Origin: a virus
Lineage: Duplodnaviria > Caudoviricetes
IMG/VR virus record: IMGVR_UViG_2599185236_000001
Span: 1-64,000 of that record
Strand: one strand, 5' to 3'
DNA length: 64,000 nucleotides
Below are positions 1-63,232 of this stretch, in pieces (the stretch's first letter is position 1; each line of letters begins with the position of its first letter). The position numbers were made by a program, and so were the translations under genes. Below the pieces are notes generated by a model. It had not been told where the DNA came from and made no database searches. It worked only from the letters and a program-made list of their open reading frames with translations.

Positions 1-636
1 CTATCCATACCGCCTCAACGCCTCATCGACCTTCCCGAACAATGCCTCCGGTGCATTGTCGTTCGCGATGACAAGATCCTCATCGCCGCACCCACGCTCT
101 GATTCGTGATGCCCTGGAATGCCGCCGCGTCCTACCAGCTTGTAGATGTCGCCGCCGAGCCGTCGGATTGCCTGCGCCTCGTTCGGGAAGCGGCAGTCGT
201 CGACAACGACGCGGCCAGCCTGTGCCAGGATGTCTACAGCGCGCTCCCGCCATAGATTAATCCAGAAGCCGTCACCGATGCAGTTCCGGCCCCACTCCGT
301 ACCGAGCGTCTGCATCGCATGCCTTGGCGTCTTCCCTTGCAACAGAGTGCAGGCCTTCTCCTTGAGAGATCCTTCAATTTCCTCCTCAGTCAGGCCAATT
401 AGCCGCATCATATCCTTAAGCGGCCCGGCGAACTTCACGAGCGTGTAGCCGTGCTGCTCGACGAGGTAGCGCGTGGCCGTGGACTTGCCGCTGCCAGCCT
501 GGCCAGTGAAGGCGACGACCGGCGGGAGATTGTCGTTGGCAGGTTCGTACTTGCCGATTGCGGCGCCGAGCGCGTGCAGCTCGGTCGGAACGGCCGTGAT
601 GCAGCCGGGATCGTCGGAATGAATATCAATCAGCAT
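1..636 (-). CDS. deoxynucleoside monophosphate kinase (phage dNMP kinase family)
   Basis: P-loop AFTGQAGSGKST, KFAGPLKDM, TPRHAMQTLGTEWGR, VVVDDCRFPNEA and HESE motifs; ATG at 636 overlaps the upstream gene end. Confidence 0.88.
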   Translation of the reverse strand: MLIDIHSDDPGCITAVPTELHALGAAIGKYEPANDNLPPVVAFTGQAGSGKSTATRYLVEQHGYTLVKFAGPLKDMMRLIGLTEEEIEGSLKEKACTLLQGKTPRHAMQTLGTEWGRNCIGDGFWINLWRERAVDILAQAGRVVVDDCRFPNEAQAIRRLGGDIYKLVGRGGIPGHHESERGCGDEDLVIANDNAPEALFGKVDEALRRYG

Positions 637-847
637 TGAGCGCCTCCTCAATAATCTCTTCGTCGCAGAAGTTTTCTACGGCCAAATTTTGAAAGGTGGT
701 CGCCGGGTCCGAAACCTCTACGGCTGCGGCAAGCGCCATACGCATCCGCTCCAGGTAACGACGCCGCTCACCTCTAGGCATCGACAGCCAAGGCCGTCGG
801 TCGAACTCGGCCTCAGCCTTCGCCATAGCCAGCAAGATCTTGCTCAT
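626..847 (-). CDS. hypothetical phage protein
   Basis: 73-aa ORF with RBS, coupled to the kinase. Confidence 0.55.
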   Translation of the reverse strand: MSKILLAMAKAEAEFDRRPWLSMPRGERRRYLERMRMALAAAVEVSDPATTFQNLAVENFCDEEIIEEALNAD

Positions 848-855
848 AGTGCCTC

Positions 856-1122
856 CTATAGTTTTCTCGCGGGCGTGCCGGGCTTCACCACCGGCCGGAA
901 CCGGCGGACGTTGAATGGCGGATCCTCATCGCCGAACTCAGGGCAGACGCCGCGGTTAATGCCTTCCAGCCTCACGCCGATGTAGTCGCCGTTGAGGTAG
1001 CTGGTGACCTGGCCGACCCATCGGGCCTTGTAGATCGTGCCCGCTGTGATGCCGAGGTACTGCTCGGCGTAGATGCCATCATCCACGCATACGATGTCGT
1101 CGCCGGGTTTGATGTTGGTCAT
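856..1122 (-). CDS. hypothetical phage protein (small beta-rich)
   Basis: MTNIKPGDDIVCVDD...RRFRP; tight operon packing. Confidence 0.6.
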   Translation of the reverse strand: MTNIKPGDDIVCVDDGIYAEQYLGITAGTIYKARWVGQVTSYLNGDYIGVRLEGINRGVCPEFGDEDPPFNVRRFRPVVKPGTPARKL

Positions 1123-1265
1123 GATATCCACCCGCCCTTATTCTCTTCGCACTTGGCGAACCATGTCTCCTGTACCTTTTGGGCGCGCCTTAGCTGCATC
1201 TTTCGCACGGTCTTGTCGAAGCCAAAGAGGAATAGAACCCATTCCCACTGAGTGAAATTGCTCAC
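1119..1265 (-). CDS. small hypothetical protein
   Basis: GTGA and ATGA overlaps with both neighbours; 48 aa. Confidence 0.4.
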   Translation of the reverse strand: MSNFTQWEWVLFLFGFDKTVRKMQLRRAQKVQETWFAKCEENKGGWIS

Positions 1266-1837
1266 GACGCCCTCCCCAGCTTCGGCTCCTCGACGCCAAG
1301 TTCGGGCGGCTCGACGTAGACGATCGGCTTGCCAGCATTCAGAAAGCTTTCGAACTCGTACTTGAGGCCGACCGAATCCCACCAACCTCGCATCTCTAGA
1401 ACGATGAGCGAGGACGCAGCGTCGATCAGAGGCTGGTCCTGATCCTTCCAGAAGTCCCACGTGCGCGGCAGCTCCTGATAGCGGGTTACGGCATGGCCGT
1501 GGGCAATCGGGCAGTAGATCCGCATGCCTCGCGCCATGAGCTTGCCGGCGCACTCTGTGACGACACGCGCCGCCTCATCCATTCCTGCGTCGTACTTGGC
1601 ATATGGAGAGCCGAGATAGATGAAGCCTTGCAGCTTCGCCAGATCGTCCAGCGTGTGCAGCGGCTCGGTCTCCCTGTCACGTGCCGCCAGTTCCTTGGCG
1701 CTATACAGGTAGGGCTTGCCGCTGCCTGTAAGCCCACGGATGCTGGCCGGCACGTTGTCATTCGCGGCAACGTACTTGTCGAGCGGGCCGAATGTGGTTG
1801 TTACCAGATCTGCGGAAACGGTATAACCGGGCATCAT
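1262..1837 (-). CDS. DUF1937-like / nucleoside deoxyribosyltransferase-like protein
   Basis: FIYLGSPY, YCPIAHGH, W-x-Q-D-x-LIDAAS, GW-x-SVGLKYE, GKPIVY motifs. Confidence 0.75.
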   Translation of the reverse strand: MMPGYTVSADLVTTTFGPLDKYVAANDNVPASIRGLTGSGKPYLYSAKELAARDRETEPLHTLDDLAKLQGFIYLGSPYAKYDAGMDEAARVVTECAGKLMARGMRIYCPIAHGHAVTRYQELPRTWDFWKDQDQPLIDAASSLIVLEMRGWWDSVGLKYEFESFLNAGKPIVYVEPPELGVEEPKLGRAS

Positions 1838-2058
1838 GCGGCCTCCTTCTCGGCGATGATCTCAGCGCCGAGGATCACCATGCGGCGGCCTAGCTCGACG
1901 AGAGCGCGGCTGGCGCCGAGCAACTCGTGGTGCCGCTTGGTGGGTCGACCGAAGAAGGAGGCGGGCAAGCGCTCATGCTCCGATGCGATCTCCTCATGAT
2001 ATGCGTGCAGCAGTTTGTGCGCCTCTAGCAGGCCTTTATGCTTTGCAGCCTTGCTCAT
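1834..2058 (-). CDS. hypothetical phage protein
   Basis: ATGA-coupled 74-aa ORF. Confidence 0.55.
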   Translation of the reverse strand: MSKAAKHKGLLEAHKLLHAYHEEIASEHERLPASFFGRPTKRHHELLGASRALVELGRRMVILGAEIIAEKEAA

Positions 2059-2462
2059 GCGGCCTCCCGCTGATCCGTGATGATGTTAGACGACAGCCGC
2101 TTCATGGTCTCTACGAGCGGACTGACAAAATCCACCTCGATACCATTCTGCCGGCCGAGTTCGATCACGTCAGAAAGAGCGCCCATGAATTCCTTCATCC
2201 GGGTCTCTTCCGGCGAAGGCAACTTCGCGATGAATGCTTCCATCTTGCGCAGGACATCGGCCGGGGTTTTGCCTTTTATCCACTCGTATTTTGAGCCATA
2301 GGAAGTCTTCTTGTCGTCCCAGCTGAGATAGGCTTGCAGTTCTTCATTGGCGACGATGTTGAATTTCGCCACAGGATTGCGCAGGCCCTTCGCCGACATA
2401 GCGGCCGGCATTGCGTCGACGCGCTTCTGCACGTCATTGATGGTTGCTGGCTTGCTCATCAA
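2055..2462 (-). CDS. hypothetical phage protein
   Basis: coupled 135-aa ORF. Confidence 0.6.
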   Translation of the reverse strand: MMSKPATINDVQKRVDAMPAAMSAKGLRNPVAKFNIVANEELQAYLSWDDKKTSYGSKYEWIKGKTPADVLRKMEAFIAKLPSPEETRMKEFMGALSDVIELGRQNGIEVDFVSPLVETMKRLSSNIITDQREAA

Positions 2463-2926
2463 AACGCCTTCCCGCCAGCCTTGAGCCGGTTCTCGATCTT
2501 GTGGTCTTCGCGGTTGTCGTTGTAGGCCATCTTCTCGATGATCGCCCCGCCCAGGTCGTAGCCCATGAACGTTGCCAGGTCGCCGATGCGGATCATGGCG
2601 TCGGCAAGCTCGACCTCCATCATCTTCCGATGCGGCAGCTTGTCGTCGTCCATCTTCTTGCGAAAGCCTTCCATCGCCTCGCTGACCTCGGAGACGATGA
2701 GCATCAGCATCTCCGGCACGTTGCGATCCAGCGCTTTGCCGGTGGCAAGGTCTGTGTACCAGCCTGCCTTGCGGCTGCGGGCGTGGCAGTCGGCCGCAAA
2801 GATGTTGATAGCGGCGGCGTGGGTGTAGGCGGGTGCTGCGGATTGGGTGTTGTCGTTGGCTGCCTTTGTCAGGCGGTCACGTTCATAGGCTTGGTATTCT
2901 CTGTCCGTCTTAGCGTCAGGTATCAT
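2459..2926 (-). CDS. MazG-like / all-alpha NTP pyrophosphohydrolase
   Basis: LMLIVSEVSEAMEGFRK...EVELADAMIRIGDLA (ExxE...ELAD). Confidence 0.82.
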   Translation of the reverse strand: MIPDAKTDREYQAYERDRLTKAANDNTQSAAPAYTHAAAINIFAADCHARSRKAGWYTDLATGKALDRNVPEMLMLIVSEVSEAMEGFRKKMDDDKLPHRKMMEVELADAMIRIGDLATFMGYDLGGAIIEKMAYNDNREDHKIENRLKAGGKAF

Positions 2927-2983
2927 TCAAGTCTCCTCTGTGGTGGTAGTTGCCGCCGGATGGTGAGGCCGACGGCTTGGTGG

Positions 2984-3148
2984 TTAGATTGTGGTGAGTT
3001 TTTCGAGGAGCGCCTCGAACTCGGTCAAGTGAGCGTCTCGCGCCTTCATCTTCCCGTCGGCAACTTCTTGCGCGTTCCGGTCGAACTTCCTACTCACCAT
3101 CCAGGCGAGTGTTTCCATCTCCCAATCGCTGAGCTCGACGGTCTTCAT
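2984..3148 (-). CDS. small hypothetical protein
   Basis: ATGA overlap with upstream stop, RBS GAAGGAAG; 54 aa. Confidence 0.5.
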   Translation of the reverse strand: MKTVELSDWEMETLAWMVSRKFDRNAQEVADGKMKARDAHLTEFEALLEKLTTI

Positions 3149-4407
3149 GCCGCTTCCTTCACGGGCGCATTGTCGTTGGCCGCCGCATAGCGCCCTGCAA
3201 CCATCTCCGGCGTCATCACGCTCCGGCCGACTTCGCCAGCCTGCTTGTGGTAGAAGATGACCTTGGCGGATCGACCTGAGAGCCATCCGCCATTCGCTGC
3301 GTATGCGTCAGGCGCGGCGAGCGTCTCGTGTTGCTCCACCTTCATAAGGTTGGTGGTCTTCAATTCGTCGGAATGCCGATGACCAACGTGGGCGTAGCTG
3401 AAGCGCGTTCGGCCGTACGCCTCGCGGAATTTGCCGACGAAGACCGAATCGACGTTGCCAGTGCCACGGCGATGTCCGTGGTGGTAGAAGAGCGTGACTG
3501 CGCCATGCTCGATCATCGAGTAGGTGCCCGGGCTGGTGTCAACGCTGATGCGAGGCTCGTCCTCATAGAACGCCGACAGCATCTCTCGCAGCCAGACCTC
3601 GCTTGAGGGGTCGTGGTTCGCATCCGCCATGATTATGTCGACCTGCTCGTGCTTCAAAAGCAGCATGCCGATGACGCGCCGGACAATCCGGATTGCGGCG
3701 CGGACCATCTTGGGATAGCGCGTATCGCCGTCGAGTAGGTGACCGTGCTCCGGCGTGACACTCTTGAATGAGTCGTAATGTAAAAAATCTCCGAGCTGCG
3801 CGAACACGGCGCGGCGAGCAGGCGGCGCTACTGAGATGGCAGACGCAAACCAATCCATGACGAGCTTTTCACCGATCGACAGGTCGTAGTCTCCTGCCCC
3901 GGTCTCTTCGTTCCAGGCAAGTGCGCCTAGGTGAGCGTCGGTAATGGTGTACTGGCAGAGCAGATCTTCCTCAAAGTAGATGGGTGCCGCCACCGGCTCG
4001 GCGCGAGGTATCTCCTCTTTGAACGCCTCGACCGCCGCGTGCATGGCGGAAAGCTGAGCGGCCGAATCCGTCGCAGTCTTGATCCACTTCGCGACTTCCC
4101 TGCCCTGCCCGTCAACGAGGGCCGAGACGCCTTTGATGAACTGGCCTTGCGGTAGCTCGAAAACCTCGCCCGGTGCCTTCGTCTGCTTAATCCAGGCGTC
4201 GCCCTGCTTGCTGGCGATCGACTTGATAGCGAAGCCCGGCAGGACCGGATCCGTACCGAGCTGGCCGCGCTCGGCTGCACGATGGATGTACTTGTGGGCC
4301 GTCCCGTAGCCGACCCCCATAAGCTTGGCGACGGCACGGATGCTGTTGTGCTCGGCGTAAAGTCTGCCGGCCTGTTCGATGTTCTCGGGTGGGATGGGAT
4401 GGCTCAA
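3145..4407 (-). CDS. calcineurin-like metallophosphoesterase with N-terminal HTH
   Basis: TDAHLG, LGDFLHYD, ANHD, HHGH, GHRH motifs; N-terminal SIRAVAKLMGVGYGTAHKY helix-turn-helix; TTG start overlaps upstream stop. Confidence 0.78.
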   Translation of the reverse strand: MSHPIPPENIEQAGRLYAEHNSIRAVAKLMGVGYGTAHKYIHRAAERGQLGTDPVLPGFAIKSIASKQGDAWIKQTKAPGEVFELPQGQFIKGVSALVDGQGREVAKWIKTATDSAAQLSAMHAAVEAFKEEIPRAEPVAAPIYFEEDLLCQYTITDAHLGALAWNEETGAGDYDLSIGEKLVMDWFASAISVAPPARRAVFAQLGDFLHYDSFKSVTPEHGHLLDGDTRYPKMVRAAIRIVRRVIGMLLLKHEQVDIIMADANHDPSSEVWLREMLSAFYEDEPRISVDTSPGTYSMIEHGAVTLFYHHGHRRGTGNVDSVFVGKFREAYGRTRFSYAHVGHRHSDELKTTNLMKVEQHETLAAPDAYAANGGWLSGRSAKVIFYHKQAGEVGRSVMTPEMVAGRYAAANDNAPVKEAA

Positions 4408-4761: not shown

Positions 4762-5415
4762 TTAAGCAGTCCGCCCCAGTAGCGCGCACACCTCGTGCGA
4801 CGGCACGACGAAACCGAACCCGATGAGCGAGGAAGAGAAGCCAAGCGGGACACTCATGACGCCGACGGTAATTCCGATTACATTCCCGTTGGCGTCGAAC
4901 GTGCCGCCGCCACTCTGGCCCATGACAGTCGTGATGTCCGTGACGAACACGGACTTCCAGGGTCCAATCGACCGAGGCTCGCCCGCTATTTTGCCTGTTG
5001 CAGTGACGAACTCGACGGCAAGCGGATTGCCGATCGACGTGATGGCCTCGCCTTTCGCAGCGGTGCGGCAATCCAGGCTGACCGCCGGCAGCATCTCCGG
5101 CGACGTGCGCAGCAGTGCGATATCGTAGGTCTTGTTGATCCAGAGGACATCGGCCGGGCGCGTCTTGCCGTCCTTCGTTTTCAGCTCCACGGTCGCAGCA
5201 TCTCCGGCGACGTGCGCAGCAGTAACGACAAATCCATTGCCGATGTGGACGCCAGAGCCGTGGCCGTTCTTAAGGATGACTTTGACCGTCGCCGTCTCGG
5301 TGGCTGGCGCGGCCATGTAAGTTTCGACGGATGCGGCGACCGTCGGTGCGCCGAAATATGCGGCGCTTGAGAGTGCGACTGCGAGGGCTGCGTATGCGAT
5401 GCGTCTGAGATTCAT
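4762..5415 (-). CDS. trypsin-like (S1) serine protease with N-terminal signal/TM segment
   Basis: GSGV, VTAAHV, DIALL and GQSGG catalytic triad motifs; hydrophobic N-terminus. Confidence 0.88.
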   Translation of the reverse strand: MNLRRIAYAALAVALSSAAYFGAPTVAASVETYMAAPATETATVKVILKNGHGSGVHIGNGFVVTAAHVAGDAATVELKTKDGKTRPADVLWINKTYDIALLRTSPEMLPAVSLDCRTAAKGEAITSIGNPLAVEFVTATGKIAGEPRSIGPWKSVFVTDITTVMGQSGGGTFDANGNVIGITVGVMSVPLGFSSSLIGFGFVVPSHEVCALLGRTA

Positions 5416-35860: not shown

Positions 35861-35862
35861 CG

Positions 35863-38208: not shown

Positions 38209-39606
38209 TTAGGCCGAGGTGACCATGAGCTTGACGGCTTCGAAGTTCACGACGTCGCCACCGACGCGGCGGCGGTTGTAGAACTTGACGTACGGCTTGG
38301 CGGTCAGGTTGTCGCGCAGCAGCGTCAGGCCGAGACGGTCGACGATGGTGTATGCTGCCTTGAAGTCACCGAAAGCCACCGGAAGCGAACCAGCTGCGAT
38401 TGCCGGCATGTCTTCACAGCGATTGACTGCGAAACCCAGGATCGTCGCCGGCTGGCCGCCCTTGATGTCACCCATCTGCCAGAGGTAGTTGCCCTGGCCA
38501 TCCTTGAGCTTCATGGCGTCGCGGACGGTGGTCCGCTTCATCAGGAAGTTGGCGTTCTGGGTGTAGTAGTCCTTCAGCGCGAAGACGAGGTTGTAGAAGG
38601 CGTCAGCGGTGATGGCAGTCGCACCACCGGAGACAATCTGCTCGATCTTGCCGTTTTCGAGGTGACCGTCGGCGCCGGACGTTGCCCAGTTGCCGTAGCT
38701 CAAGAGACCGCGCGGTTTGTTGACACCGTCACCGGTGAAGAATGCGCTGGCCTCGATGCGGCCCATGCGTTCGCCTACCTTGTTGCCGACCCACGCCTCA
38801 ATATCGAGGCCAGCGTCTTCCAACATGTTCTGCGTCACGCGCGGCTCAGCGAACATCTCATGAGCGAAGATCTTGGATACGCCGAGCTGCGACGTCGACG
38901 TTTCCGACGGTGCCTGGGTCTCGCCTACCCAGCCGCCGAAGCCAAATTCGCCTTCGTCGCGCGGGATTTCAAGTTCCTTGCCGCCGATCGTCTCGACCGT
39001 TGCGAGAGCGCGTAGATTCGAAGTCTCGAAGATGCGCTGGATGATGCGGCTGGAGACCGTCTTCGGGACAAGGTAGCCGCCGTCCGGATCGGAGCCGGTC
39101 TGCATTGCTGCCTGTACCGGGCCAGGCATAGCCGCGTCGGAGCGAGCGCGCATGTACGGCGCAAATGCCGCCGAGTAAGCCGCATAGGCCTCTTCGTCGG
39201 CGACGATCTCGGTGTTGATGCCGAGCTTGCCGGCGTTGGCCAGCTGCGCCTTTGCGAATTCGAATGCGGCCTTTGCGTCAGCCGCGCCTTCATCGCCTGC
39301 CCAGCCGCCGTTACCCGGGCGCTTTAGGACCGCGTCGATCTTGTCGACGTCGGCGGAAACAGCAACGATGCTGTCCGTGGCAGCCTTCAGCGATGCCTCC
39401 AGAGCGGCATGCTTGGTCTCAACGGCAGCAACGAGGGTGTCGATCTTGTTAACGGCGATCGGGTCGCCATCCTTGCCGTACTTGTCGAGCGTCGCGCGGA
39501 GCTCGTTAAGTTCGCGGCGGGTGTTGTCGTTGGCAGCACGGAAGTCATTGCCGAAGCGGGTAACTTCCGCCGAAATGGCGTCGATATTTTCCTGAGAAAC
39601 GGGCAC
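38209..39606 (-). CDS. major capsid protein, HK97 fold
   Basis: N-terminal coiled-coil delta domain, DGGYLVP, F-x-TGDG-x-NKPRG, FGDF...YTIVDR, RRVGG. Confidence 0.95.
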   Translation of the reverse strand: MPVSQENIDAISAEVTRFGNDFRAANDNTRRELNELRATLDKYGKDGDPIAVNKIDTLVAAVETKHAALEASLKAATDSIVAVSADVDKIDAVLKRPGNGGWAGDEGAADAKAAFEFAKAQLANAGKLGINTEIVADEEAYAAYSAAFAPYMRARSDAAMPGPVQAAMQTGSDPDGGYLVPKTVSSRIIQRIFETSNLRALATVETIGGKELEIPRDEGEFGFGGWVGETQAPSETSTSQLGVSKIFAHEMFAEPRVTQNMLEDAGLDIEAWVGNKVGERMGRIEASAFFTGDGVNKPRGLLSYGNWATSGADGHLENGKIEQIVSGGATAITADAFYNLVFALKDYYTQNANFLMKRTTVRDAMKLKDGQGNYLWQMGDIKGGQPATILGFAVNRCEDMPAIAAGSLPVAFGDFKAAYTIVDRLGLTLLRDNLTAKPYVKFYNRRRVGGDVVNFEAVKLMVTSA

Positions 39607-39615: not shown

Positions 39616-40479
39616 CTATGATTGGGTGTGGAATGCGGCGCGGGCCTTTGCGAGGGCCTCTGCCAAACCTGAAAGCTTCACGTCGCCAGCATCCCGCGTG
39701 GCCTGAATGTCGCTTGTGTCGACTTCGCGCATTGCTGCGCGAGCCTTTGAGCGAGACCACCCAGCGTCCTGCGTGAGTGCTCGTTCCATGTCTCGTTTTG
39801 TGGGCTGGGTGTCGGACGTGTCGTCGTCTTCCCATAGCAGGGCTTTCGGCACATGGCCGAAAACGGAAAGGTCAAACTTCGCCTGCGGCTCCGCCGTCAA
39901 TCCGATGGACGTGGCAAAACCGGCGTCTTTGGCTTCTCGTGCAGTCAGCCAAGTCTCGTCATCCATCATCTGCTTGATGGCGCGGATCCCTGTCGTGGTG
40001 CGAGCCGCGTAGGTTCGGGCCAATGCGTCATCGATCTTACCGAGAACAGTGGCAACATCAGACAGGTCGTGCCTGTTGCCGACGCCAATGGTCCAAGCGT
40101 TGTGGATCATGAACATTGCGTTGTCTGCGATGACGATCTCGTCACCGGCCATGGCGATGATGGAAGCGATGGATGCCGCCAAGCCGACCACCTCGACCTT
40201 TACCTTGCCGTCGTAAGCAAGGAGGTCGTTGTAGATCGAGATGCCGTCAAACACGTCGCCGCCTGGCGAGTTGATCCGCAGCGTAATGTCGCCGCTGACT
40301 TGGGAAAGCTGAGACCGGAATGACCGGGCGTTGACGCCCCAATAGCCGATTTCATCGTAGAGGTGGATAACCGTTCCGGAGCTCTCCGCCTTGGCTTCAA
40401 ATTTGGTGCCTACAGCGCGCGCAAAGAATCGGTCACGGCGCTCTCCCGCTCGGGGCGCGCCGACGTCAATTTTATCCAT
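39616..40479 (-). CDS. prohead protease, ClpP-like (S14)
   Basis: LYDEIG, INSPGGDVFDG, GLAASIAS, FMIHNAW, ETWLTA. Confidence 0.93.
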   Translation of the reverse strand: MDKIDVGAPRAGERRDRFFARAVGTKFEAKAESSGTVIHLYDEIGYWGVNARSFRSQLSQVSGDITLRINSPGGDVFDGISIYNDLLAYDGKVKVEVVGLAASIASIIAMAGDEIVIADNAMFMIHNAWTIGVGNRHDLSDVATVLGKIDDALARTYAARTTTGIRAIKQMMDDETWLTAREAKDAGFATSIGLTAEPQAKFDLSVFGHVPKALLWEDDDTSDTQPTKRDMERALTQDAGWSRSKARAAMREVDTSDIQATRDAGDVKLSGLAEALAKARAAFHTQS

Positions 40480-40487: not shown

Positions 40488-41720
40488 CTATTTCGCCGCA
40501 TTGTCGTTGGCGGGCGACGGAGCTGGCTTGTCGACCTGAATAGCGGGGTTCTCGAACACATCACCGCCCTCACGGGGGTTCATGTTCTCCTTGATGCGGG
40601 CCTCGTTCGCACTCATCCATTTGTTCTGGATGGCGGATGAGTAGGCCTCGTACCGCGCTTTTGTGTCGCCTCGCAGCATCGCGTCAATGAGGAACTCGCA
40701 GAAGTAACCCTCTGCTCTGTCCCTCTCGGTCAGCAGGTCTCGGTTGATTGCCTGCTCCCATCGCACCAGCCAAGGCCGAAGGCTATGAATGATGAAGTCC
40801 AGGGTCTGGAATTCGATGTTTGAGAAGGTCGCCTTCTCGAGATCGTTGACCAGGTGAGCAGGGACGCGGAAAATGCCGGCGATCTCAGATCGTTGGAACT
40901 TGCGACCATCGATGAACTCGGCATCCTTGGGTGCGATGTTCATCGAAATCCATTCCATCCCCTCCTCGAGGATGATCGGCTTGCCGCTGTTCTCCAAACC
41001 AGCGTAACGCTCGGAGAACTGCTGGCGCAGATTTTCCGTGGCTATCGGCCCGATGACCTTTGGGTGCTTCAACACGCCGGTTGGCTTGACGCCGTTCCGG
41101 TACATGTTGGAACCAAATGATTCGGCGGCCATACCAAGGCCGATTGCCTCCCGCGCGAGCGAGATCATTGATCGCCCAACATAGCCCTTCGGCAATGGAC
41201 CACGTATGTGGTGCATGTCTTTCGAAGTGAGCTTGGCCTTCGTGTTGTCAGGCATGGTCGCCTCGTACTTCGGTGACCAGTCCATAGCCTGCGTGATCGT
41301 CACGCCGTCTGGGTTAAGTGGAATAAGCCCGATCGCTTGCCCGAGCCGATTACGCTCGACGTAGCTGTAGCCGTTGCCACGCAGCGATAGGTTGACCATC
41401 GTGCCTTCGGCATATTCGAACGCGGAATTCCACCCGTTAGCCTGATCGTGCAGCACCTTGTAGAGTGGATGCTCGGTGGCTCGGTCTTTTCCGCCATCCT
41501 TGCGCCTCTTGTAGAGGATGCAAGGAAGGCTGGCGACACTCTCGGCAAGTACGCGCACGCAGATCAACACCGTCGTGTAGCGTAGGGCAGTCTCGGGCGA
41601 GACGTAAACTCCTGTCGCAGCGAGGTTCCCACCGCTCTGCAGCTTTGCCCATTCATCCATGGGCAAGCTGGTGATCTCAGCTCGGGGGCGCATAAGCGCG
41701 CCGAAAATTCCAGCCATCAA
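40488..41720 (-). CDS. portal protein, HK97 family
   Basis: HPLYKVLH...N, L-x-GNGY, LEEGM...KDAEF, FRVP-x-HL, NEAR-x-x-EN. Confidence 0.95.
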   Translation of the reverse strand: MMAGIFGALMRPRAEITSLPMDEWAKLQSGGNLAATGVYVSPETALRYTTVLICVRVLAESVASLPCILYKRRKDGGKDRATEHPLYKVLHDQANGWNSAFEYAEGTMVNLSLRGNGYSYVERNRLGQAIGLIPLNPDGVTITQAMDWSPKYEATMPDNTKAKLTSKDMHHIRGPLPKGYVGRSMISLAREAIGLGMAAESFGSNMYRNGVKPTGVLKHPKVIGPIATENLRQQFSERYAGLENSGKPIILEEGMEWISMNIAPKDAEFIDGRKFQRSEIAGIFRVPAHLVNDLEKATFSNIEFQTLDFIIHSLRPWLVRWEQAINRDLLTERDRAEGYFCEFLIDAMLRGDTKARYEAYSSAIQNKWMSANEARIKENMNPREGGDVFENPAIQVDKPAPSPANDNAAK

Positions 41721-45868: not shown

Positions 45869-46786
45869 TCAGGCCGATTTGGCGTACCGCGCCAATTCGA
45901 GTGCTTCTGCGAAATTATCGTTGGCAGCTATGAGAAGACGCCTTCCCGCCTCGATCGCATACTGACCTTTGAAGCCTCGGGCTTGCCCGATCTCTTTCAG
46001 GTTCCGCGCCTTGCTCGCCTGCGTCAGAACGTCGAAGTGATCGTCGGCCATGTATCCGACGGCCTCGTGCCATGACCTGCGCTGCTCAGTCTCCGACACC
46101 ACATCCTGCCAGGCCATCGATCCACCGCCGGCGCATGTCGTCTTTCGCATGCCGAGGAAGCTATCGGCCACCTTCTGCGATCCGCAGGGCAGCCCATCCG
46201 GATAGCGCGTGATCAGCTTGCTGACATTACCGGCCTTGGCGTAGGCGTCTGCCAGGATCCGCTTCGCTTCCTCGCGGCTGATCTGCTGGCGTGGCTGGCG
46301 CTTCCGGGACGCCGTAACGTACCGACCCTTCCGGGTCTTGAGCATCTCGGCGAAATAGTCATTGCTGTCCGTCAGCTCCTGCGAGTTCTCGTCGCCGCCG
46401 CGTTGCGCCCGTTCCTTGTCGACCGTGCCGAGCATGGCGCCGGTCGGCATCCGATCCTGGAACGTGACGACCTTGCCGTCGATCGTGACCTTCATGGCCT
46501 GCTCGGTCTGTGTGCCGTCGGAGAAGCGCAAGCGACCGATGCAAACGGTCTGACCTGCATCGTTGCGATTTACCGGGCCAGCTTTGACCTGCTTCATCAT
46601 CTCCTCGACCGAGGGCGAAATATCCCAGAGCCGTTCGGTCTTGAGGTCGGCAACGTCTTCCGGGTTGTTGTCGTTGGCCGGTGTGATGGTCCAGTTGGTC
46701 TGGATCGGCTCCGGCTCATGGTCCGGCGCGGTAGCGAAGGTCAGGAGCGCGTCGAGCTGCTCGGCAAGTGATCCGTGTCTGGCCAT
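45869..46786 (-). CDS. phage protein, possible late transcription regulator
   Basis: RBS GAGGAGAC; C-terminal HTH-like LKEIGQARG; last gene of early operon. Confidence 0.6.
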   Translation of the reverse strand: MARHGSLAEQLDALLTFATAPDHEPEPIQTNWTITPANDNNPEDVADLKTERLWDISPSVEEMMKQVKAGPVNRNDAGQTVCIGRLRFSDGTQTEQAMKVTIDGKVVTFQDRMPTGAMLGTVDKERAQRGGDENSQELTDSNDYFAEMLKTRKGRYVTASRKRQPRQQISREEAKRILADAYAKAGNVSKLITRYPDGLPCGSQKVADSFLGMRKTTCAGGGSMAWQDVVSETEQRRSWHEAVGYMADDHFDVLTQASKARNLKEIGQARGFKGQYAIEAGRRLLIAANDNFAEALELARYAKSA

Positions 46787-48980: not shown

Positions 48981-51206
48981 TCAAGCTGCCCTGACGAACA
49001 CCGCCATCTCTCGCCGGATCGGGTCGCGCTCCTCCACCTCGACGAGAGCACCCTCCTTGAACAGTGCCGTGACGACAGTGCCGGCTTTCTTCCTCGCCGC
49101 AGTGTCCTCTAGGTCGAGCCCCATGGCATAGGCCACGGCCGCGCCGACCCAGTTCTTGGCCTTGGCCGACTTCTTGTAGTCAGAGCCGCCTACTGCTGCC
49201 AGGATTGCCTGCCGCTGCTCTGCGGTTAGCTCGCCTGCCACTTCTTCCGCACTAGGCCACTGCCACTCCGTCACGACCGGCGCGAAATCCTGCGGCTTCG
49301 TCAAGCCGCGCCCGTTGCCCAGAGGCACGCCCTCAAGCTTGCGCCAGTCCAGGCGCGACGACAGCGGCGTAAGGTTCGACTTGCCGTATGTCACCGAGAA
49401 GTGACTCATGCGATCCTCAGGCTTTACGCCCGCCTCTGCCGCCTGCTCCGGCGACATCCGGTTAAGCACGCGCACCGAGCGAGCCGCGCCGATCAGCGAC
49501 ACCGCTCCTCGGGCGTCTTCCACTGTCGCCTCGCGATCCGCCACTTTCCGCAAGTGGTGCACGATGTCGATGCTGCAGTTGGTATAGTCCGCAATCTGCG
49601 CCCATAGCTTCGCGACCTTGTCGATCGCGCCGTTGTCGTTCTCGTTGACGCCGTGGGTGGACACAAACGGATCAACGATCATGACGTCGATGCCGTACCG
49701 CTCAATCTGCTCCACAACTGCCTCAACGATCGGCTGCTGGATCCGCACGCCGGCCTTCTTGTCCTCGATGGCGACGCAAAGCTCCTGCTCGCGGCCGCTG
49801 TCCAGGAACAGATGGCCTTCGATGTCCTCCGGCTTGAGGTTGTAGTGGATGCACGCCGCCATGATGCGTCGCTCCATTTCGTCGCGCGGATCCTCCGCAT
49901 TGAACACCCAAACCTTGAGACGCTGCGGCGGCTTGGTGCCGAGCAGTGCCCTGCCCGACGTCATGGCCAGTGCCTCGGCGATGCTGCTGGACGTCTTGCC
50001 GAGGCCCCCGGGGCTGACCGTGACCGACACGTATTTTCGGATGAAGTGCGAGCCATAGGCGAACTCGCGCCGCGGAATCGTGGCAGGATCGATCCACTTG
50101 AAGGCCGTGGCGGTGATGGGGGAGGAAGGCACGTTGTCGTTGGCCGCGTTCCCGCTTGGGATCACATCATCCGTTTCCGGCACGTCCGGCTCCGAATTTT
50201 CCCGTACGGGATCGTCGGCGACCAGCTCGCTCACCACATCCTCATCGACCCTCGCCTCCAGAGCCCTCGCCTTCTCTAGCCCACGCTGAATCATCCGCGT
50301 GATGTCGACCAGGCGCGTGTTGTCTTGCGGTTGGAAATCCGGCTCCGGAATGTGCCGCGGCTGCGCAATGCCAGCCTTCAGCCCGTTCTCGATCGTCTTG
50401 CAGCACCGCGACCAGTCCCTGCCCCAGCCGCGCGCCACGTCCTGCAGCAAGGCGCGCGCCTCAGCCTCCGGCAGTGCACCGGCGCCGACGAAAGTGCCGA
50501 GCGCGAACGCTGCGTCATTCAAGCTGTTGTTGCGGTTGCCCATCGGAGCGCCGGCAAGGTCGGCAAGCTCCCGGTCGACGGCAGCGTCGACGTAGGCGTT
50601 ATTGGTCGCCGATGACGCCGTGTACTTGCTGTGCGTCGGCGCCGACTTCGGTAGCAGCAAATCCAGCAACCACGCAGGCGCGTCTGCGATCTCGCGCACG
50701 TCGTCCACCCACTTGTACTGCCGACCATTCGCCATCGTGCTGCCGGCCGCCACCACGTAGCCGCCCTCAGACCGGATATCGACGCCGGCGCCAAGAGCGC
50801 CGCGGTTGCGAGTGCCCACGACGTACTTGAAGTAGATGTGCATCCCACCGTTCGGGCTGATGACACGCGCCGTTTCTGGCAGCGGGCCGTGCTCGGCCTG
50901 CATCTCGTCCAGCCACAGGAAGCCGTTCGAACCGCCGGGCTTGTTATCGATGTCCAGGGCGAAGAAGCCCGTCGGCGATCCCGTCGGCAGACCGACGGCC
51001 GCGTCGGGCCAATCCGTCCACCAGCGGTCAAGGATCCGGGCAAAACGCGTGGCTGCCTTGAAACCATTCGTGGTTAGCGGGGTTTTCTCGCCGAGCATGA
51101 TGATTTCGCCGTGTTGGTCGACGTGCTCCTCGGCGTGCGAACGGCACGGAAAGACCGGCCAGCCTTGTTCGGTGTAGTGCTGGGCTAATTCAAGCGGCGT
51201 TTGCAA
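48981..51206 (-). CDS. bifunctional primase-polymerase fused to RecA/AAA_25 helicase
   Basis: GWPVFPC, KTP-x-x-x-NGF, ALDIDNK, SPNGGMHIYF, DIRSEGGYVV; SPGGLGKTS, IVDPFVS, IVHH; TTG start with GAGGAG. Confidence 0.92.
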   Translation of the reverse strand: MQTPLELAQHYTEQGWPVFPCRSHAEEHVDQHGEIIMLGEKTPLTTNGFKAATRFARILDRWWTDWPDAAVGLPTGSPTGFFALDIDNKPGGSNGFLWLDEMQAEHGPLPETARVISPNGGMHIYFKYVVGTRNRGALGAGVDIRSEGGYVVAAGSTMANGRQYKWVDDVREIADAPAWLLDLLLPKSAPTHSKYTASSATNNAYVDAAVDRELADLAGAPMGNRNNSLNDAAFALGTFVGAGALPEAEARALLQDVARGWGRDWSRCCKTIENGLKAGIAQPRHIPEPDFQPQDNTRLVDITRMIQRGLEKARALEARVDEDVVSELVADDPVRENSEPDVPETDDVIPSGNAANDNVPSSPITATAFKWIDPATIPRREFAYGSHFIRKYVSVTVSPGGLGKTSSSIAEALAMTSGRALLGTKPPQRLKVWVFNAEDPRDEMERRIMAACIHYNLKPEDIEGHLFLDSGREQELCVAIEDKKAGVRIQQPIVEAVVEQIERYGIDVMIVDPFVSTHGVNENDNGAIDKVAKLWAQIADYTNCSIDIVHHLRKVADREATVEDARGAVSLIGAARSVRVLNRMSPEQAAEAGVKPEDRMSHFSVTYGKSNLTPLSSRLDWRKLEGVPLGNGRGLTKPQDFAPVVTEWQWPSAEEVAGELTAEQRQAILAAVGGSDYKKSAKAKNWVGAAVAYAMGLDLEDTAARKKAGTVVTALFKEGALVEVEERDPIRREMAVFVRAA

Positions 51207-52511: not shown

Positions 52512-53452
52512 GCTGCCTCCTCGTAATCGACCATGCAGCCGCAACCGCTGGATCCTGGTTCGTATTCAAAGATGAACTGCGGCTTTGCCAGCATCCGCTC
52601 GGCAAACTCGTCGAGCGAGAGCGGCTTCTTGACGTTGTCGTTCGCACGGTCGGTGAGCATCGTCACCGGCTTGCCGATGTACTCAGCCAGCTTGCGCTCC
52701 ATCATAGCGTCGTAGGCATAGCGCTCCGGATCCGCATAGAAGCGGTTCTGATAGTGAGCGTGGCCGGCCTTAATGCAAAAGCCACCACAGTTGTTGTGGA
52801 TGTAGTTCTTGCGGTAGAGCCGTGGTCGCTCAATTCCGGCCTTTGCAAGGTAGACGAACGCACCGATATCGCCCTCGAAAGTGCCTAGTAGCGGCGCCTC
52901 ATATTGCCATCCGGCCGCCATCTGCCGCTGCGCCAATACGTGATATCGATGCGCCTCATCTGGCCCGATGCCGACGCAGATGATATCGGCCGCCTTGTCG
53001 GCATTCACATCAAGCCAAGCGGCAAGAAAGTCTCGCTTTAGCACCTTCGAGCAAGGATCGATCCGGCTGTTGCCCAAAAACTTTCGATCCCGGAAAACTT
53101 CCCACGGATCGCGCCCCTCAACGAGCCAAGTCAGTTCCGGCATCACTTCCGCCACGTCGGCGCGAAGCTGGGCGAGGAAGGCTCGCCATTCCGGGTTGCC
53201 GGCGTAAGTGGCGATGTCAAACTCACCCAACACGCGGTAGTCTGGAAAGTCTGATGCCCTCGGTAGCACGTTGGAGACGTCGCGATCGATGAGGTGGGCA
53301 ATGCCCTCGATGAGAAACCGGTAGCAGTCGGCATCCTCGTATAGCGTGTCAGCGAAGAGGAAGCGGTGCTCCTCATTAGGGTGTGCGGCCATATCGACTT
53401 TGGCGGCCAGCCAGGAGCCGGCTCCGCCACTAACGCTATGGTATCTGGTCAA
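52508..53452 (-). CDS. PAPS-reductase-like PP-loop (adenine nucleotide alpha hydrolase) protein
   Basis: SVSGG-x-GS, FADT-x-x-ED, CS-x-x-LK, GI-x-x-DE, HNNCGGFCIKAG, GCGC; TTG start. Confidence 0.75.
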   Translation of the reverse strand: MTRYHSVSGGAGSWLAAKVDMAAHPNEEHRFLFADTLYEDADCYRFLIEGIAHLIDRDVSNVLPRASDFPDYRVLGEFDIATYAGNPEWRAFLAQLRADVAEVMPELTWLVEGRDPWEVFRDRKFLGNSRIDPCSKVLKRDFLAAWLDVNADKAADIICVGIGPDEAHRYHVLAQRQMAAGWQYEAPLLGTFEGDIGAFVYLAKAGIERPRLYRKNYIHNNCGGFCIKAGHAHYQNRFYADPERYAYDAMMERKLAEYIGKPVTMLTDRANDNVKKPLSLDEFAERMLAKPQFIFEYEPGSSGCGCMVDYEEAA

Positions 53453-59691: not shown

Positions 59692-60230
59692 GCAGCCCGC
59701 CTTTGCAGACGAGCGACGAGAACGGCCCGGGCACGCTCTTCCTTCTGGCGAACGTTCTCTTTGCTCGTGCCGTTCTCGTCTCCGATGTCGGAAAGCAGTT
59801 CGCCGGCCGCGCGACGCAGCACGATGTTTCCGTTCGGGATGCGCTGCAGACGATCAACGACCTCCGCGAGATCGGCGCGAACGAACTGCTCCGGCTGCAC
59901 ACGCAGTTGCGCGCATCTGTTCTCAAGAGGCGCAACGTCATCGCCGACCATGGCATCAATCGAGACTTCAGGCGCGTTGCGCATCTGGCGCCGCTCGCGC
60001 TTGCGCATCCCACTCGCCACGCTCTCCATGACGAGTTGCGCCCATGTCCGGAACGTCTCCATTCTGCATGTGCCGGCACGCCGCAGCATGGCAATCATCG
60101 ATTCCTGCAAAAGATCGTCAGCCTTCTGACGGTCGCGTGTGATTATGCGCGCCTTGCGACGGAGCATAGGAAGGTAGGCGACAAGCGCGGCGTCAAAGCC
60201 GGTCGGCCTGTTGTCATTCGCCGGGATCAT
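59688..60230 (-). CDS. ECF-like RNA polymerase sigma factor
   Basis: region 2 LP-x-LRRKAR...ADDLLQE...FRTW; region 4 LSDIG...KENVRQ-x-E-x-RAR. Confidence 0.7.
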   Translation of the reverse strand: MIPANDNRPTGFDAALVAYLPMLRRKARIITRDRQKADDLLQESMIAMLRRAGTCRMETFRTWAQLVMESVASGMRKRERRQMRNAPEVSIDAMVGDDVAPLENRCAQLRVQPEQFVRADLAEVVDRLQRIPNGNIVLRRAAGELLSDIGDENGTSKENVRQKEERARAVLVARLQRRAA

Positions 60231-61179: not shown

Positions 61180-61466
61180 TATGCCCCACCCCCGAACGCA
61201 AACAGCGGCGACGTAGCAAGCGCAGATTGATGGCCGCGCTGATCGCCAGACCTGACGTAAGTCGTCCAGATCTCCTTGCCGTCCCGTGTCACCGGGTGCA
61301 TCTCGGCGACGCTGTAATCAACGTCGTCGATCTCTTCGGCATCGATGTGGAAGTCATCCTTATCGACTTTCGCCTCGATCATCGCCTCCGCATCTTCCTT
61401 AGAAGGAGCCTCGACGACCTCGGTGCTGCGCCCTTGGAACCGGTAGTCAATCAGGAACTTGGCCAT
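61179..61466 (-). CDS. hypothetical phage protein
   Basis: coupled 95-aa ORF. Confidence 0.55.
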   Translation of the reverse strand: MAKFLIDYRFQGRSTEVVEAPSKEDAEAMIEAKVDKDDFHIDAEEIDDVDYSVAEMHPVTRDGKEIWTTYVRSGDQRGHQSALATSPLFAFGGGA

Positions 61467-61469
61467 GAG

Positions 61470-62528
61470 CTACACCCGAACCGGCATCAAGACGCCGTCC
61501 CAGCCAGCCAAGCCACCGGTGATGACCGCAGCACCGCCACCATCCGAAAGCGCCATCGTGACCTCTCCTGCAGGCAGGACATTGAACAGGTCGCGCACGT
61601 ACTGGCTGTTGAAGCCGACATAGAAAGGCTCGCCGCTGTATTCCGCGGCAACCTCGTCCTCCGCCTCGCCGGCATCAGATCGAGCCGCCAGGGCGATTGA
61701 ACCTGGCGCGATGCTCAGCTTAACCGACCGGCCTTTCTCCGACGAGACAGTCACAACGCGTTCGGCCGCCTTCATCATCTCGTCGCGGTTGACGGTGATG
61801 ATCTTGTCGTTGTCACGCGGGATGACGCGCTGATAGTCTGGGAATGTGCCATCGATCAGATTGGCGGTCAGGCTGATGTCGGCATGCTGGATGCGGATCT
61901 TCTCCTGCGAGACCGAAACCGTCACCTCGCCTTTCGGCAGCAGGCCGACGGTCTTGCGCCCCACGATGACGCCGGCGAACTCCGGAACGACCGGGCCACG
62001 GTTGCGCGCGAGCCGGTGGCCGTCAGTAGCCACAGCTACCGCCTTGCCGTCGACGACGTGGAAGTAGACGCCCCCGAGATAATAGCGGGTCTCCTCTGTC
62101 GAGATGGCGAACGCAACTGGCGCGAACAGGCCGGCAAGGTCGATGTCAAACTCGGCGTCGAATGTGCCCTTGCCGAGGATGTCAGGAAAGTCCGACGCCG
62201 GCAGGGTTTCCAGCTTGAACTTGCTTCGGCCCGACTTCACCTCAAGGCGGTTGTCTACCAGTGAGATGGAAATGTCGGCTGCGCTTGCCTTGCGGACGAT
62301 TTCGCCGAGCAGCTTGGCGCTGACGGTCGTTGTGCCGGCTTTCTGGACATCGGCTTCGGCGCTGGCCGTTGCCTGGATGTCGAGGTCTGTCGCTGTCACC
62401 TTGAGAGTGCCACCCTCGGCCTCCAGCAGGATATTGGACAGGATTGGAATGGTGTTTCTGGCTTCGACGACCTTGCCCACGGCGCCGACGACGCGCGCGA
62501 GTTCGGTGCGGCTGATATTCAGCTGCAT
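61470..62528 (-). CDS. dnaN: DNA polymerase III beta sliding clamp homolog
   Basis: PILSNILL, ATDLD, DFP, AISTEETRYYLGGVY, VATDGHRLA, LIDGTFPDY-x-RVIP, GFNSQY, LMPVRV. Confidence 0.93.
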   Translation of the reverse strand: MQLNISRTELARVVGAVGKVVEARNTIPILSNILLEAEGGTLKVTATDLDIQATASAEADVQKAGTTTVSAKLLGEIVRKASAADISISLVDNRLEVKSGRSKFKLETLPASDFPDILGKGTFDAEFDIDLAGLFAPVAFAISTEETRYYLGGVYFHVVDGKAVAVATDGHRLARNRGPVVPEFAGVIVGRKTVGLLPKGEVTVSVSQEKIRIQHADISLTANLIDGTFPDYQRVIPRDNDKIITVNRDEMMKAAERVVTVSSEKGRSVKLSIAPGSIALAARSDAGEAEDEVAAEYSGEPFYVGFNSQYVRDLFNVLPAGEVTMALSDGGGAAVITGGLAGWDGVLMPVRV

Positions 62529-62585
62529 GATGGTCTCCTCTTGTGGTGTAAAGGCGAGCCGATGGTGAGGCGGCCCGCATTAGAG

Positions 62586-62663
62586 TTAGCGGAGCGCGAC
62601 CCAGACGAACGCCACGAAGGCGAACGCACCGGCCGCGCTGGCGAAGGCGTCAGGCCAACCCAT
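62586..62663 (-). CDS. 25-aa hydrophobic peptide
   Basis: MGWPDAFASAAGAFAFVAFVWVALR, overlapping the upstream stop. Confidence 0.3.
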   Translation of the reverse strand: MGWPDAFASAAGAFAFVAFVWVALR

Positions 62664-63232
62664 CACTTGTTGCCCCAGGGCCGGCGCGTGGTGCCCGCAG
62701 CTGCGCCACCGGCGGGCTTGCTGGCCGCATTGTCGTTTGCAGCCGTACGCTGCTGTCGGTTGTCGTTTGCCGGAGCCGACCGCTGCGCAGGCTGGTTCGG
62801 GTCGATCTCGGCGGCCGGTACATTGCCTTCGTCCGGATAAAAGAAGCGCTTGATCTCGTTGCGCGGCTCGTAGCCCTCGCGCGGTTTCTCGACGCCGACC
62901 TTTGCCGTGAACGAGATGAAATGAAGCTCGTCGGAGTCGTTGACCTCGTTGAGGCCGATGGCGCGGCACAGTTTCGCGAGATCGCGCTGGCCGATCTCCT
63001 GCGCCGTGGAGTTGGCGTTTTCGAGGTTGATGTTCGCGAAGATCTTCCGACCCTTGAACTCCGACGGCTCGACGACGTCGTAGGTGAGCTTGAGGATGGT
63101 TCCGTTGCCCTTAGCCGTCGGCTTCACCTCGGAGGCCGAAACCTCCAGCACATAAGTGCCGTTCGGCAGGTTGCTGCCGCGCTGTTCGGTGTCGTGATCC
63201 TGAGCATTAAATCTTTGACCAAGTCCGGCCAT
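62663..63232 (-). CDS. DUF669 single-stranded DNA-binding protein
   Basis: LPNGTY, GRKIF...N, IG-x-x-x-LAKLCRA, RNEIK. Confidence 0.8.
   Translation of the reverse strand: MAGLGQRFNAQDHDTEQRGSNLPNGTYVLEVSASEVKPTAKGNGTILKLTYDVVEPSEFKGRKIFANINLENANSTAQEIGQRDLAKLCRAIGLNEVNDSDELHFISFTAKVGVEKPREGYEPRNEIKRFFYPDEGNVPAAEIDPNQPAQRSAPANDNRQQRTAANDNAASKPAGGAAAGTTRRPWGNK

What the first reader, a model, noticed from the sequence alone, without database searches (positions are those of the whole stretch)
55..62770. Phage-wide ANDN peptide motif copying the alphaproteobacterial tmRNA (SsrA) tag, in 15 unrelated proteins
Seen: ANDN, usually AANDN or PANDN, occurs 18 times. Codon positions are dNMP kinase (55-66, 529-540), DUF1937 (1754-1765), MazG-like (2849-2860), phosphoesterase (3169-3180), tape measure (31182-31193), capsid (39523-39534), portal (40500-40511), regulator (45914-45925, 46667-46678), Prim-Pol (50133-50144), PAPS-reductase-like (52634-52645), MTase (54617-54628), MT-A70 (55441-55452), helicase (57943-57954), sigma factor (60210-60221) and SSB (62729-62740, 62759-62770). 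It is always in frame on the coding strand. Codons differ only at third positions (GCC/GCG/GCA, AAC/AAT, GAC/GAT, AAC/AAT), which points to selection on the peptide rather than a DNA repeat. Most copies sit in termini or linkers, and none is in the accessory island. A rough composition estimate gives about 0.1 expected copies in this coding length. Known: the Caulobacter SsrA tag is AANDNFAEEFAVAA, the E. coli tag is AANDENYALAA, and the SspB adaptor binds the N-terminal part of the tag to deliver substrates to ClpXP. Inference: the phage hard-codes SspB-docking sites into many proteins, either to time their turnover, to titrate host SspB/ClpXP, or to recruit ClpX as a remodeller. An alternative is that ANDN is a recognition site for a phage protease (the ClpP-like prohead protease or the S1 protease at 4762-5415); portal, capsid and tape measure are classic processed substrates.
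Basis: partly seen in the sequence, partly recalled or inferred. Interest (0 to 1): 0.92.

Follow-up and report, generated by a model that had tools for sequence, protein, structure and literature searches.

The report
Phage proteins carry host destruction tag
A rhizobial prophage related to the classic phage 16-3 encodes the invariant head (Ala-Asn-Asp-Asn), and often the Ala-Ala end, of its host's tmRNA 'destroy-me' tag in flexible parts of about a fifth of its proteins, which probably links them to the host SspB-ClpXP protease, though no binding or degradation has been measured.

Summary
Confirmed. ANDN occurs 18 times in 15 genes of the window and 21 times in 18 of about 91 genes of the 72-kb prophage (0.17 expected; host proteome 9 observed, 10.4 expected). 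All copies are in frame on the coding strand. ANDN and terminal AA were the constant parts of 29 Rhizobiales tmRNA tags; the host has tmRNA, adjacent sspB, and clpX. Across six 16-3-like phages the distance from ANDN to the C-terminus peaks at 13 residues, the host tag's length; 22 of 24 sites at 11-16 residues end in xA. The motif is gained and lost among portal orthologues and stays fixed over a variable spacer in 91 of 120 MT-A70 homologues. 16-3-like temperate phages carry 18-26 copies; other phages tested carry 0-2. The ClpP-type prohead protease is ruled out as reader and the S1 protease is unlikely. Best reading: built-in SspB docking sites that make mostly early proteins ClpXP substrates (0.6); binding and purpose are untested. 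I found no paper describing it, but this scan has already noted the same motif in 21 findings from at least 19 genomes, so this is another instance, not a first sighting.

The parts
55..66 (-). ANDN at residue 191 of 211 in dNMP kinase (1-636); the only site inside a Pfam envelope among those with a Pfam match
529..540 (-). ANDN at residue 33 of dNMP kinase, N-terminal extension
1754..1765 (-). ANDN at residue 25 of the DUF1937 protein (1262-1837), before the domain (73-175)
2849..2860 (-). ANDN at residue 23 of the MazG-like pyrophosphatase (2459-2926)
3145..3183 (-). Full tag-like C-terminus of the phosphoesterase/exonuclease (3145-4407): ANDN 11 residues from the end, terminal AA; orthologues have it at 13 residues, ending VA
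31182..31193 (-). ANDN at residue 980 of 1038 in the tape measure protein, Pro/Ala-rich linker
39523..39534 (-). ANDN at residue 25 of the HK97-type capsid precursor (38209-39606), in the N-terminal scaffold region, about 150 residues before the capsid domain (176-462)
40488..40514 (-). Portal C-terminal tail: ANDN 7 residues from the end, ends AAK; homologues carry ANDN at 11-15 residues with AA
45914..45925 (-). ANDN 18 residues from the end of a 305-aa protein of unknown function (45869-46786, phrog_36072); conserved in relatives
46667..46678 (-). Second ANDN (residue 37) of the same 305-aa protein; conserved in relatives
50133..50144 (-). ANDN in the acidic linker between the Prim-Pol and AAA_25 domains (48981-51281); the protein ends AA; absent from a 79%-identical orthologue
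52634..52645 (-). ANDN 45 residues from the end of the PAPS-reductase-like protein (52508-53674); the protein ends AA
54578..54628 (-). Methyltransferase tail (54578-55408): ANDN 16 residues from the end, then clamp-binding-like QADLF, then AA
55408..55455 (-). MT-A70 methyltransferase tail (55408-55983): ANDN 14 residues from the end, terminal AA; 91 of 120 homologues keep ANDN in the last 25 residues
57943..57954 (-). ANDN 18 residues from the end of the SF2 helicase (57898-59688), followed by an SSB-tail-like DDIPF end
60210..60221 (-). ANDN at residue 4 of the sigma-70-like factor (59688-60230); the protein ends AA
62729..62770 (-). Two ANDN copies, 10 residues apart, in the C-terminal tail of the DUF669 (SSB-like) protein (62663-63232)
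39616..40479 (-).
4762..5415 (-).
61470..62528 (-). Phage-encoded DNA Pol III beta clamp, a clade marker shared by the large ANDN-rich phages; a candidate phage partner (rival)

Best explanation
ANDN is a short linear motif that mimics the SspB-binding head of the host tmRNA (ssrA) tag. The phage encodes it in flexible tails, linkers and loops. Host SspB-alpha would bind the motif and tether the protein to ClpX, which engages a C-terminal Ala-Ala (or xA) end and degrades the protein. In five proteins ANDN and AA form a complete tag of native length; in three (Prim-Pol, PAPS-like protein, sigma factor) ANDN is internal and the AA end is distant, an RseA-like layout. The likely effect is short, SspB-dependent lifetimes for early DNA-handling proteins (methyltransferases, nucleases, primase, sigma factor), which would suit a temperate phage that must clear them to enter or keep lysogeny. 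The three virion sites lie in parts expected to be enclosed on assembly, so they would mark only unassembled or ejected subunits. Shown: enrichment, peptide-level selection, match to both constant tag ends and to the tag's spacing, repeated gain and loss, and presence of the host machinery. Inferred: SspB binding, degradation, and purpose.
For: 21 observed against 0.17 expected, host 9 against 10.4, frame-locked. The host tag is ANDN plus 9 residues ending AA. All 29 tags found beside sspB in 31 genomes of the order start ANDN and end AA, with variable middles. Host sspB is an SspB-alpha (phmmer E 4e-91 to 2NYS, 1e-35 to Caulobacter 2QAS) and clpX is present. In six phages the distance from ANDN to the end peaks at 13 (10 sites), and 22 of 24 sites at 11-16 end in xA. 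Here 5 of 5 such genes end AA against 18 of 86 others (p = 7e-4). MT-A70: ANDN is fixed in the tail of 91 of 120 homologues over a spacer variable in sequence and length, most ending AA, CA or VA; 19 of 27 lacking the tail copy have ANDN in a loop after DPPW, against 7 of 93 with it. Portal: 21 of 120 carry it, with at least 10 gains or losses forced by supported branches. Early proteins are favoured, 18 against 3 (p = 0.004). The same layout occurs in satellite-like elements and in a different phage clade with AND[NDE]. Terminal AA is necessary but often not sufficient for ClpXP degradation (PMC10862746), and weak ends become SspB-dependent degrons when tethered (DAS+4; PMC8138137, PMC9382460).
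Against: There are no binding or stability data. Ten of the 18 carriers do not end in AA (helicase IPF, SSB GNK, kinase RYG), so they need another ClpX grip or do something else. Terminal AA often overlaps or abuts the next start codon (17 of 23), so translational coupling explains part of the AA excess, although coupled host genes end AA in only 5.6%. The trait is clade-restricted: the temperate phage Cd and the rhizobial phages ppBeUSDA76-1, RHph_Y5A, RHph_TM3_3_9 and X2_26 have 0-1 copies, although SspB was found in all 61 genomes of the order searched. The MT-A70 compensation did not reach significance on independent pairs because the tree is unresolved. An earlier AI note reports ANDN in a Pseudomonas phage, whose host tag I recall starting ANDD or ANDE; I did not check it. 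The primary papers on which residues SspB-alpha binds were not available to me.
Confidence: 0.6

Rival explanations
1. Decoy or titration: the many ANDN sites, especially on abundant capsid precursor and SSB, soak up the scarce SspB and so change host proteolysis, or shield the phage proteins that have no ClpX end.
For: Ten of 18 carriers lack an AA end. Tandem pairs 8-10 residues apart in SSB and helicase tails could engage both sites of an SspB dimer. E. coli has only about 50-350 SspB dimers per cell (PMC9382460).
Against: A decoy needs one abundant protein, not 18 different low-copy enzymes. Selection keeps AA at the native distance. Late proteins are depleted of the motif.
Confidence: 0.12
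2. ANDN docks on another host reader of the tag head (ClpA, Lon, FtsH or an unknown factor) rather than SspB.
For: ssrA-tagged proteins are also degraded by ClpAP, Lon and FtsH (PMC8138137), and upstream tag elements matter for ClpA (PMC10862746). Similar motifs appear in high-GC viral contigs of unknown host.
Against: sspB lies next to ssrA in 29 of 31 loci, and ANDN is the constant head there, which fits an SspB-alpha site.
Confidence: 0.1
3. ANDN is a docking motif for a phage-encoded hub of the 16-3 clade (the beta clamp, the KOW-repeat/bL12-like 443-aa protein, or another clade gene); the likeness to the tag is secondary.
For: All large ANDN-rich phages carry the clamp, the five named relatives checked also carry the KOW/bL12-like gene, and ANDN-free X2_26 showed neither in the 50 kb examined. 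ANDN often precedes other linear motifs (QADLF, DDIPF).
Against: It does not explain the AA end at tag spacing. Satellite-like elements (G087, G089) and a DnaB-type clade (G088, G093) carry the motif with no clamp found, though these are fragments. No phage SspB or tmRNA was found.
Confidence: 0.09
4. ANDN is a cleavage site for a phage protease (the ClpP-type prohead protease or the S1 protease).
For: An S1 protease is present in this phage and in six ANDN-rich relatives, and absent from X2_26. Portal, capsid and tape measure protein are classic processed substrates.
Against: No ClpP-family gene was found in five ANDN-rich phages. No S1 protease was found in G097 and G098 (11 ANDN each; 90% and 100% complete) or G109. 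The S1 protease has a signal-like N-terminus. Most sites are in cytoplasmic early proteins, many 7-21 residues from the end.
Confidence: 0.04
5. A DNA- or RNA-level repeat (uptake, recombination or binding site, or copied ssrA fragments) that merely translates as ANDN.
For: C-ending codons are somewhat more frequent in the motif than in the background.
Against: Near-matches are confined to the sense frame. All synonymous codons are used, and GCA, the first codon of the host tag, is 20% against 16% in the background. The spacer varies in whole codons.
Confidence: 0.02

Closest known systems
Native alphaproteobacterial tmRNA (ssrA) tag read by SspB-alpha and ClpXP (Caulobacter AANDNFAEEFAVAA, PMC9393093; SspB structures 2QAS, 2QAZ, 2NYS)
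   Same: Same constant head ANDN and terminal AA, same 12-14 residue layout in five proteins; the host has the full machinery.
   Different: Encoded in the phage's own genes rather than added by trans-translation; 16 of 21 copies are not complete tags; the middle of the tag is not conserved.
RseA(1-108), a natural SspB-delivered ClpXP substrate of E. coli with a C-terminal VAA (PMC8138137, citing Flynn 2004)
   Same: A gene-encoded SspB site with a separate C-terminal ClpX degron, as inferred for Prim-Pol, the PAPS-like protein and the sigma factor.
   Different: RseA is a single host regulator exposed by cleavage, and its SspB site is not an ssrA copy (from memory); here the site is the tag head, spread over about 20% of a viral proteome.
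Engineered DAS+4 and other SspB-conditional degrons (PMC8138137, PMC9382460)
   Same: An SspB site plus a weak C-terminal degron and a variable spacer gives adaptor-dependent decay.
   Different: Synthetic and E. coli-type; the present case is natural and untested.
Single phage proteins with ClpX signals (MuA C-terminus, lambda O N-terminus; PMC8138137)
   Same: Phage replication or transposition proteins handed to host ClpX.
   Different: One protein each, recognised directly by ClpX, with no SspB motif and no proteome-wide pattern.
Rhizobium phage 16-3 group (16-3, RHph_TM3_3_14B, RHph_X2_25, NV1.1.1, AP-16-3)
   Same: Same early module and gene order (Sak4-like AAA protein, DUF669, beta clamp, exonuclease, sigma factor, helicase, methyltransferases, primase) and 18-26 motif copies each.
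   Different: This prophage has a ClpP-type prohead protease and a capsid closer to Azospirillum phage Cd, and carries ANDN in three virion proteins.

Membership tests
Native tmRNA-added ssrA tag | Added to nascent chains by tmRNA, not encoded in the gene | tested here: not met
   All copies are in the DNA, in frame; the prophage has no tmRNA
Native tmRNA-added ssrA tag | Head identical to the host tag head (ANDN) | tested here: met
Native tmRNA-added ssrA tag | Terminal AA about 12-14 residues from the head | tested here: met
   Met for 5 of 21 copies here (11-16 residues); peak at 13 across six phages; not met for the other 16 copies
SspB-ClpXP substrate (ssrA- or RseA-type) | Host encodes SspB and ClpX | tested here: met
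SspB-ClpXP substrate (ssrA- or RseA-type) | Motif in an accessible, unstructured segment | tested here: inconclusive
   11 of 12 sites in proteins with a Pfam match lie outside the envelope; the single-sequence fold was unusable
SspB-ClpXP substrate (ssrA- or RseA-type) | Direct binding to SspB | not testable with these tools
SspB-ClpXP substrate (ssrA- or RseA-type) | SspB- and ClpX-dependent degradation | not testable with these tools
   Needs half-life measurements
Prohead or S1 protease cleavage site | The protease co-occurs with the motif | tested here: not met
   ClpP family in 0 of 5 rich relatives; no S1 protease in G097, G098, G109
Prohead or S1 protease cleavage site | Site at the scaffold/capsid boundary | tested here: not met
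   ANDN at residue 25; the capsid domain starts near 176
DNA-level dispersed repeat (DUS-, HIP1- or Chi-like) | Independent of frame and strand, fixed nucleotide sequence | tested here: not met
16-3-like temperate rhizobiophage | Shared early replication module and a tyrosine integrase | tested here: met

The most novel reading that the evidence does not exclude
The phage uses SspB-ClpXP occupancy as a sensor. About 18 early proteins share one adaptor queue with the host's tmRNA-tagged proteins, so when ribosome stalling floods SspB they would all be stabilised together. That would couple the lysis-lysogeny outcome to host translation stress at the level of protein stability, across the proteome.
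Probability: 0.15. Interest if true: 0.9.

Novelty: new variant of a known kind. Interest (0 to 1): 0.74.

Why it matters
Phage use of host proteases is known one protein at a time. A phage lineage that evolves the same host-adaptor motif into a fifth of its proteins, gains and loses it gene by gene, and has it at alternative positions within one protein family would be a new scale of linear-motif mimicry in bacteria. It would supply the first large natural substrate set for SspB-alpha, whose role beyond tmRNA tags is unclear. It is directly testable in a classical system: phage 16-3 of Sinorhizobium meliloti has 18 copies. It also gives natural sequence diversity for designing degrons for rhizobia.

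Tried and rejected
A single-sequence AlphaFold model of the SSB had pLDDT 37 and was uninformative. The primary SspB-alpha papers were not held, so residue-level specificity rests on memory and on tag conservation. Nine literature searches and a check of a recent prophage survey found no description of ANDN in phage proteins; the library lacks most subscription journals. Eight gamma- and betaproteobacterial phages had 0-2 AND[NKDE]. The scan sees only close pairs, so absence is not shown. The independent-pairs test of MT-A70 compensation was underpowered. The T-depleted 6-kb tract beside the prophage was considered as retroelement (DGR)-type mutagenesis and rejected as an assembly overlay. No phage-encoded SspB or tmRNA was found.

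Full report
Observation. Six-frame translation gives exactly the 18 ANDN sites listed, all on the minus strand, and gene calling places them in frame in 15 genes. The window is G000:C30:61767-125766, most of a prophage of about 72 kb (C30 about 60856-133306) with a tyrosine integrase at its right end. Three further copies lie outside the window, giving 21 in 18 of about 91 genes. Composition predicts 0.17; the host proteome has 9 against 10.4 expected; ANDN is the most enriched tetrapeptide (log10 p = -36); permutations and single substitutions are at background apart from overlaps with ANDN itself. Near-matches to the DNA consensus are confined to the sense frame and all synonymous codons are used. 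Selection therefore acts on the peptide.

Context. The closest helicase in the same genus lies in Neorhizobium sp. JUb45, so the host is a rhizobium of that genus. The phage belongs to the 16-3 group by its early module. Whole-genome counts are 18 ANDN for 16-3, 18 for RHph_TM3_3_14B and 20 for RHph_X2_25. With a slightly looser pattern, AP-16-3 has 26 and NV1.1.1 has 22. The JUb45 prophage region has about 20. By contrast RHph_X2_26, which shares helicase, primase, exonuclease and SSB but has no tyrosine integrase, has 0; the temperate Azospirillum phage Cd has 1; three other rhizobial phages and eight gamma- or betaproteobacterial phages have 0-2. The trait is lineage-specific. It is also found in satellite-like elements (in the capsid scaffold linker, terminase tail and tape measure protein) and, as AND[NDE] with AA ends, in a separate DnaB-type clade.

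Match to the host tag. The host tmRNA encodes ANDN plus nine residues ending AA. sspB lies directly downstream and is an SspB-alpha close to Agrobacterium 2NYS and Caulobacter 2QAS; clpX is present. In 29 of 31 sspB loci across the order a tmRNA was found alongside; all begin ANDN and end AA, with variable middles, 12-13 residues in all. The phage proteins reproduce these two constant elements. Pooling 104 sites from six phages, the distance from ANDN to the C-terminus peaks at 13, and 22 of 24 sites at 11-16 residues end in xA (these sites include orthologues and are not all independent). In this prophage all five genes with ANDN at 11-16 residues end AA, against 18 of 86 others (p = 7e-4). 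One caveat: 17 of 23 AA-ending phage genes overlap or abut the next start codon, so translational coupling contributes, but coupled host genes end AA in only 5.6% of cases.

Evolution of the sites. Among 120 portal homologues, 66 end AA and 21 carry ANDN in the tail, with intermediates such as ANEN and SDN. A tree of the portal core needs 13 changes, at least 10 forced by well-supported branches. An exonuclease 84% identical to ours has a tag-like extension in 16-3 that ours lacks, and our Prim-Pol linker site is missing from a 79%-identical orthologue. In MT-A70, 91 of 120 homologues keep ANDN in the last 25 residues over a spacer that varies in sequence and length (mostly 10-16 residues to the end) and most end AA, CA or VA. 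Of 27 without the tail copy, 19 have ANDN in the loop after the catalytic DPPW, against 7 of 93 with it (Fisher p = 1e-10, uncorrected). The tree is too poorly resolved for an independent test, so this compensation is suggestive only. The pattern is what a position-flexible docking motif paired with a C-terminal degron would give.

Mechanism. From established knowledge, SspB binds the tag head and tethers the substrate to ClpX, which grips terminal AA (PMC8138137, PMC9382460). AA alone is often a weak degron (PMC10862746), and weak ends become SspB-dependent when a head is supplied (DAS+4). I infer that ANDN recruits SspB-alpha and that carriers with xA ends are degraded by ClpXP. The carriers are mostly early DNA-handling proteins (18 early against 3 virion sites, p = 0.004), for which fast clearance would help a temperate phage. 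The three virion sites (capsid scaffold region, portal tail, tape measure protein) should be enclosed after assembly, by analogy with HK97-type heads, so they would mark only free or ejected subunits. That step and the link to lysogeny are inference; the lifestyle link rests on one contrast (X2_26), and Cd is a temperate counter-example. Ten carriers lack an AA end; for them tethering might feed weaker ClpX signals, or merely occupy SspB.

Rivals. The ClpP-type prohead protease is absent from five ANDN-rich relatives. The S1 protease travels with most of the clade but is missing from two ANDN-rich proviruses and from G109, and it has a signal-like N-terminus. A phage hub (the beta clamp, or a KOW-repeat protein with a bL12-like end) is not excluded, but it does not explain the AA ends at tag spacing. 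Titration and alternative host readers remain open.

Novelty. No paper in the searchable library describes this. This scan has recorded the same motif in 21 findings from at least 19 genomes; these are unchecked AI notes and are not counted as evidence. I reached the same reading before opening them. Verdict: a real and striking feature, a new deployment of a known degradation pathway, mechanism probable but unmeasured.

Noticed in passing
G000:C30:133306-139371 (outside the window, right prophage junction): A 6,066-bp ungapped overlay of the prophage's left end (C30:60856-66921, including window 1-5155) with the host flank: A kept 100%, C about 80%, G about 45%, T about 13%. Taking the alphabetically first base of the phage and host-orthologue sequences predicts 87-89% of positions. 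It is an assembly artefact, not hypermutation, and suggests that excised circular phage was present in the sequenced culture.
   Followed up: yes
G000:C30:60856-60880 (L011 about 2856-2880): The attachment core lies just upstream of a chpT-like gene (recognised from its translation, near a ctrA-like gene) and reads TTAA-N7-TTTA on the minus strand, resembling a CtrA box; relatives show the empty site.
   Followed up: partly
window 57898-57921 (-): The SF2 helicase ends in an SSB-tail-like acidic DDIPF (DEVPF in 16-3-like phages), while the DUF669 SSB lacks such a tail.
   Followed up: partly
window 54593-54607 (-) and 61470-62528 (-): Methyltransferase tails carry a clamp-binding-like QADLF/QLSLF between ANDN and AA, and the phage encodes its own beta clamp.
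   Followed up: partly
L012:1757-3088 (-) (G000:C30:126757-128088): A 443-aa early protein with repeated KOW/SH3-like modules and a C-terminal bL12-like domain (ESM Atlas 0.91 to a cluster 48% PF00542), shared by all five named ANDN-rich relatives checked. From memory, the bL12 C-terminal fold resembles ClpS.
   Followed up: partly
IMG/VR loci L016-L095 and L388-L499: Many viral contigs carry tmRNA genes (37 of 80 and 59 of 112 loci by ARAGORN), often low-GC and two-piece, with tags starting ANDN or ANDD.
   Followed up: no
L136 and L138-L167: sspB lies next to ssrA in 29 of 31 Rhizobiales loci.
   Followed up: yes
L243, L199, L059: Satellite-like elements with a fused protease-capsid gene carry ANDN in the scaffold linker, the same structural place as in this phage's capsid.
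   Followed up: partly
window 44588-44951 (-): A tRNA-Met gene (44875-44951) overlaps the start of a 115-aa ORF just upstream of the terminase genes.
   Followed up: no
window 16054-18009 (-): Acyltransferase-3/SGNH protein in the low-GC accessory region, a probable surface-glycan modifier.
   Followed up: no
window 51295-52101 (+): An antisense HNH gene inserted between early genes; a 53%-identical copy occurs in satellite-like locus L199.
   Followed up: no
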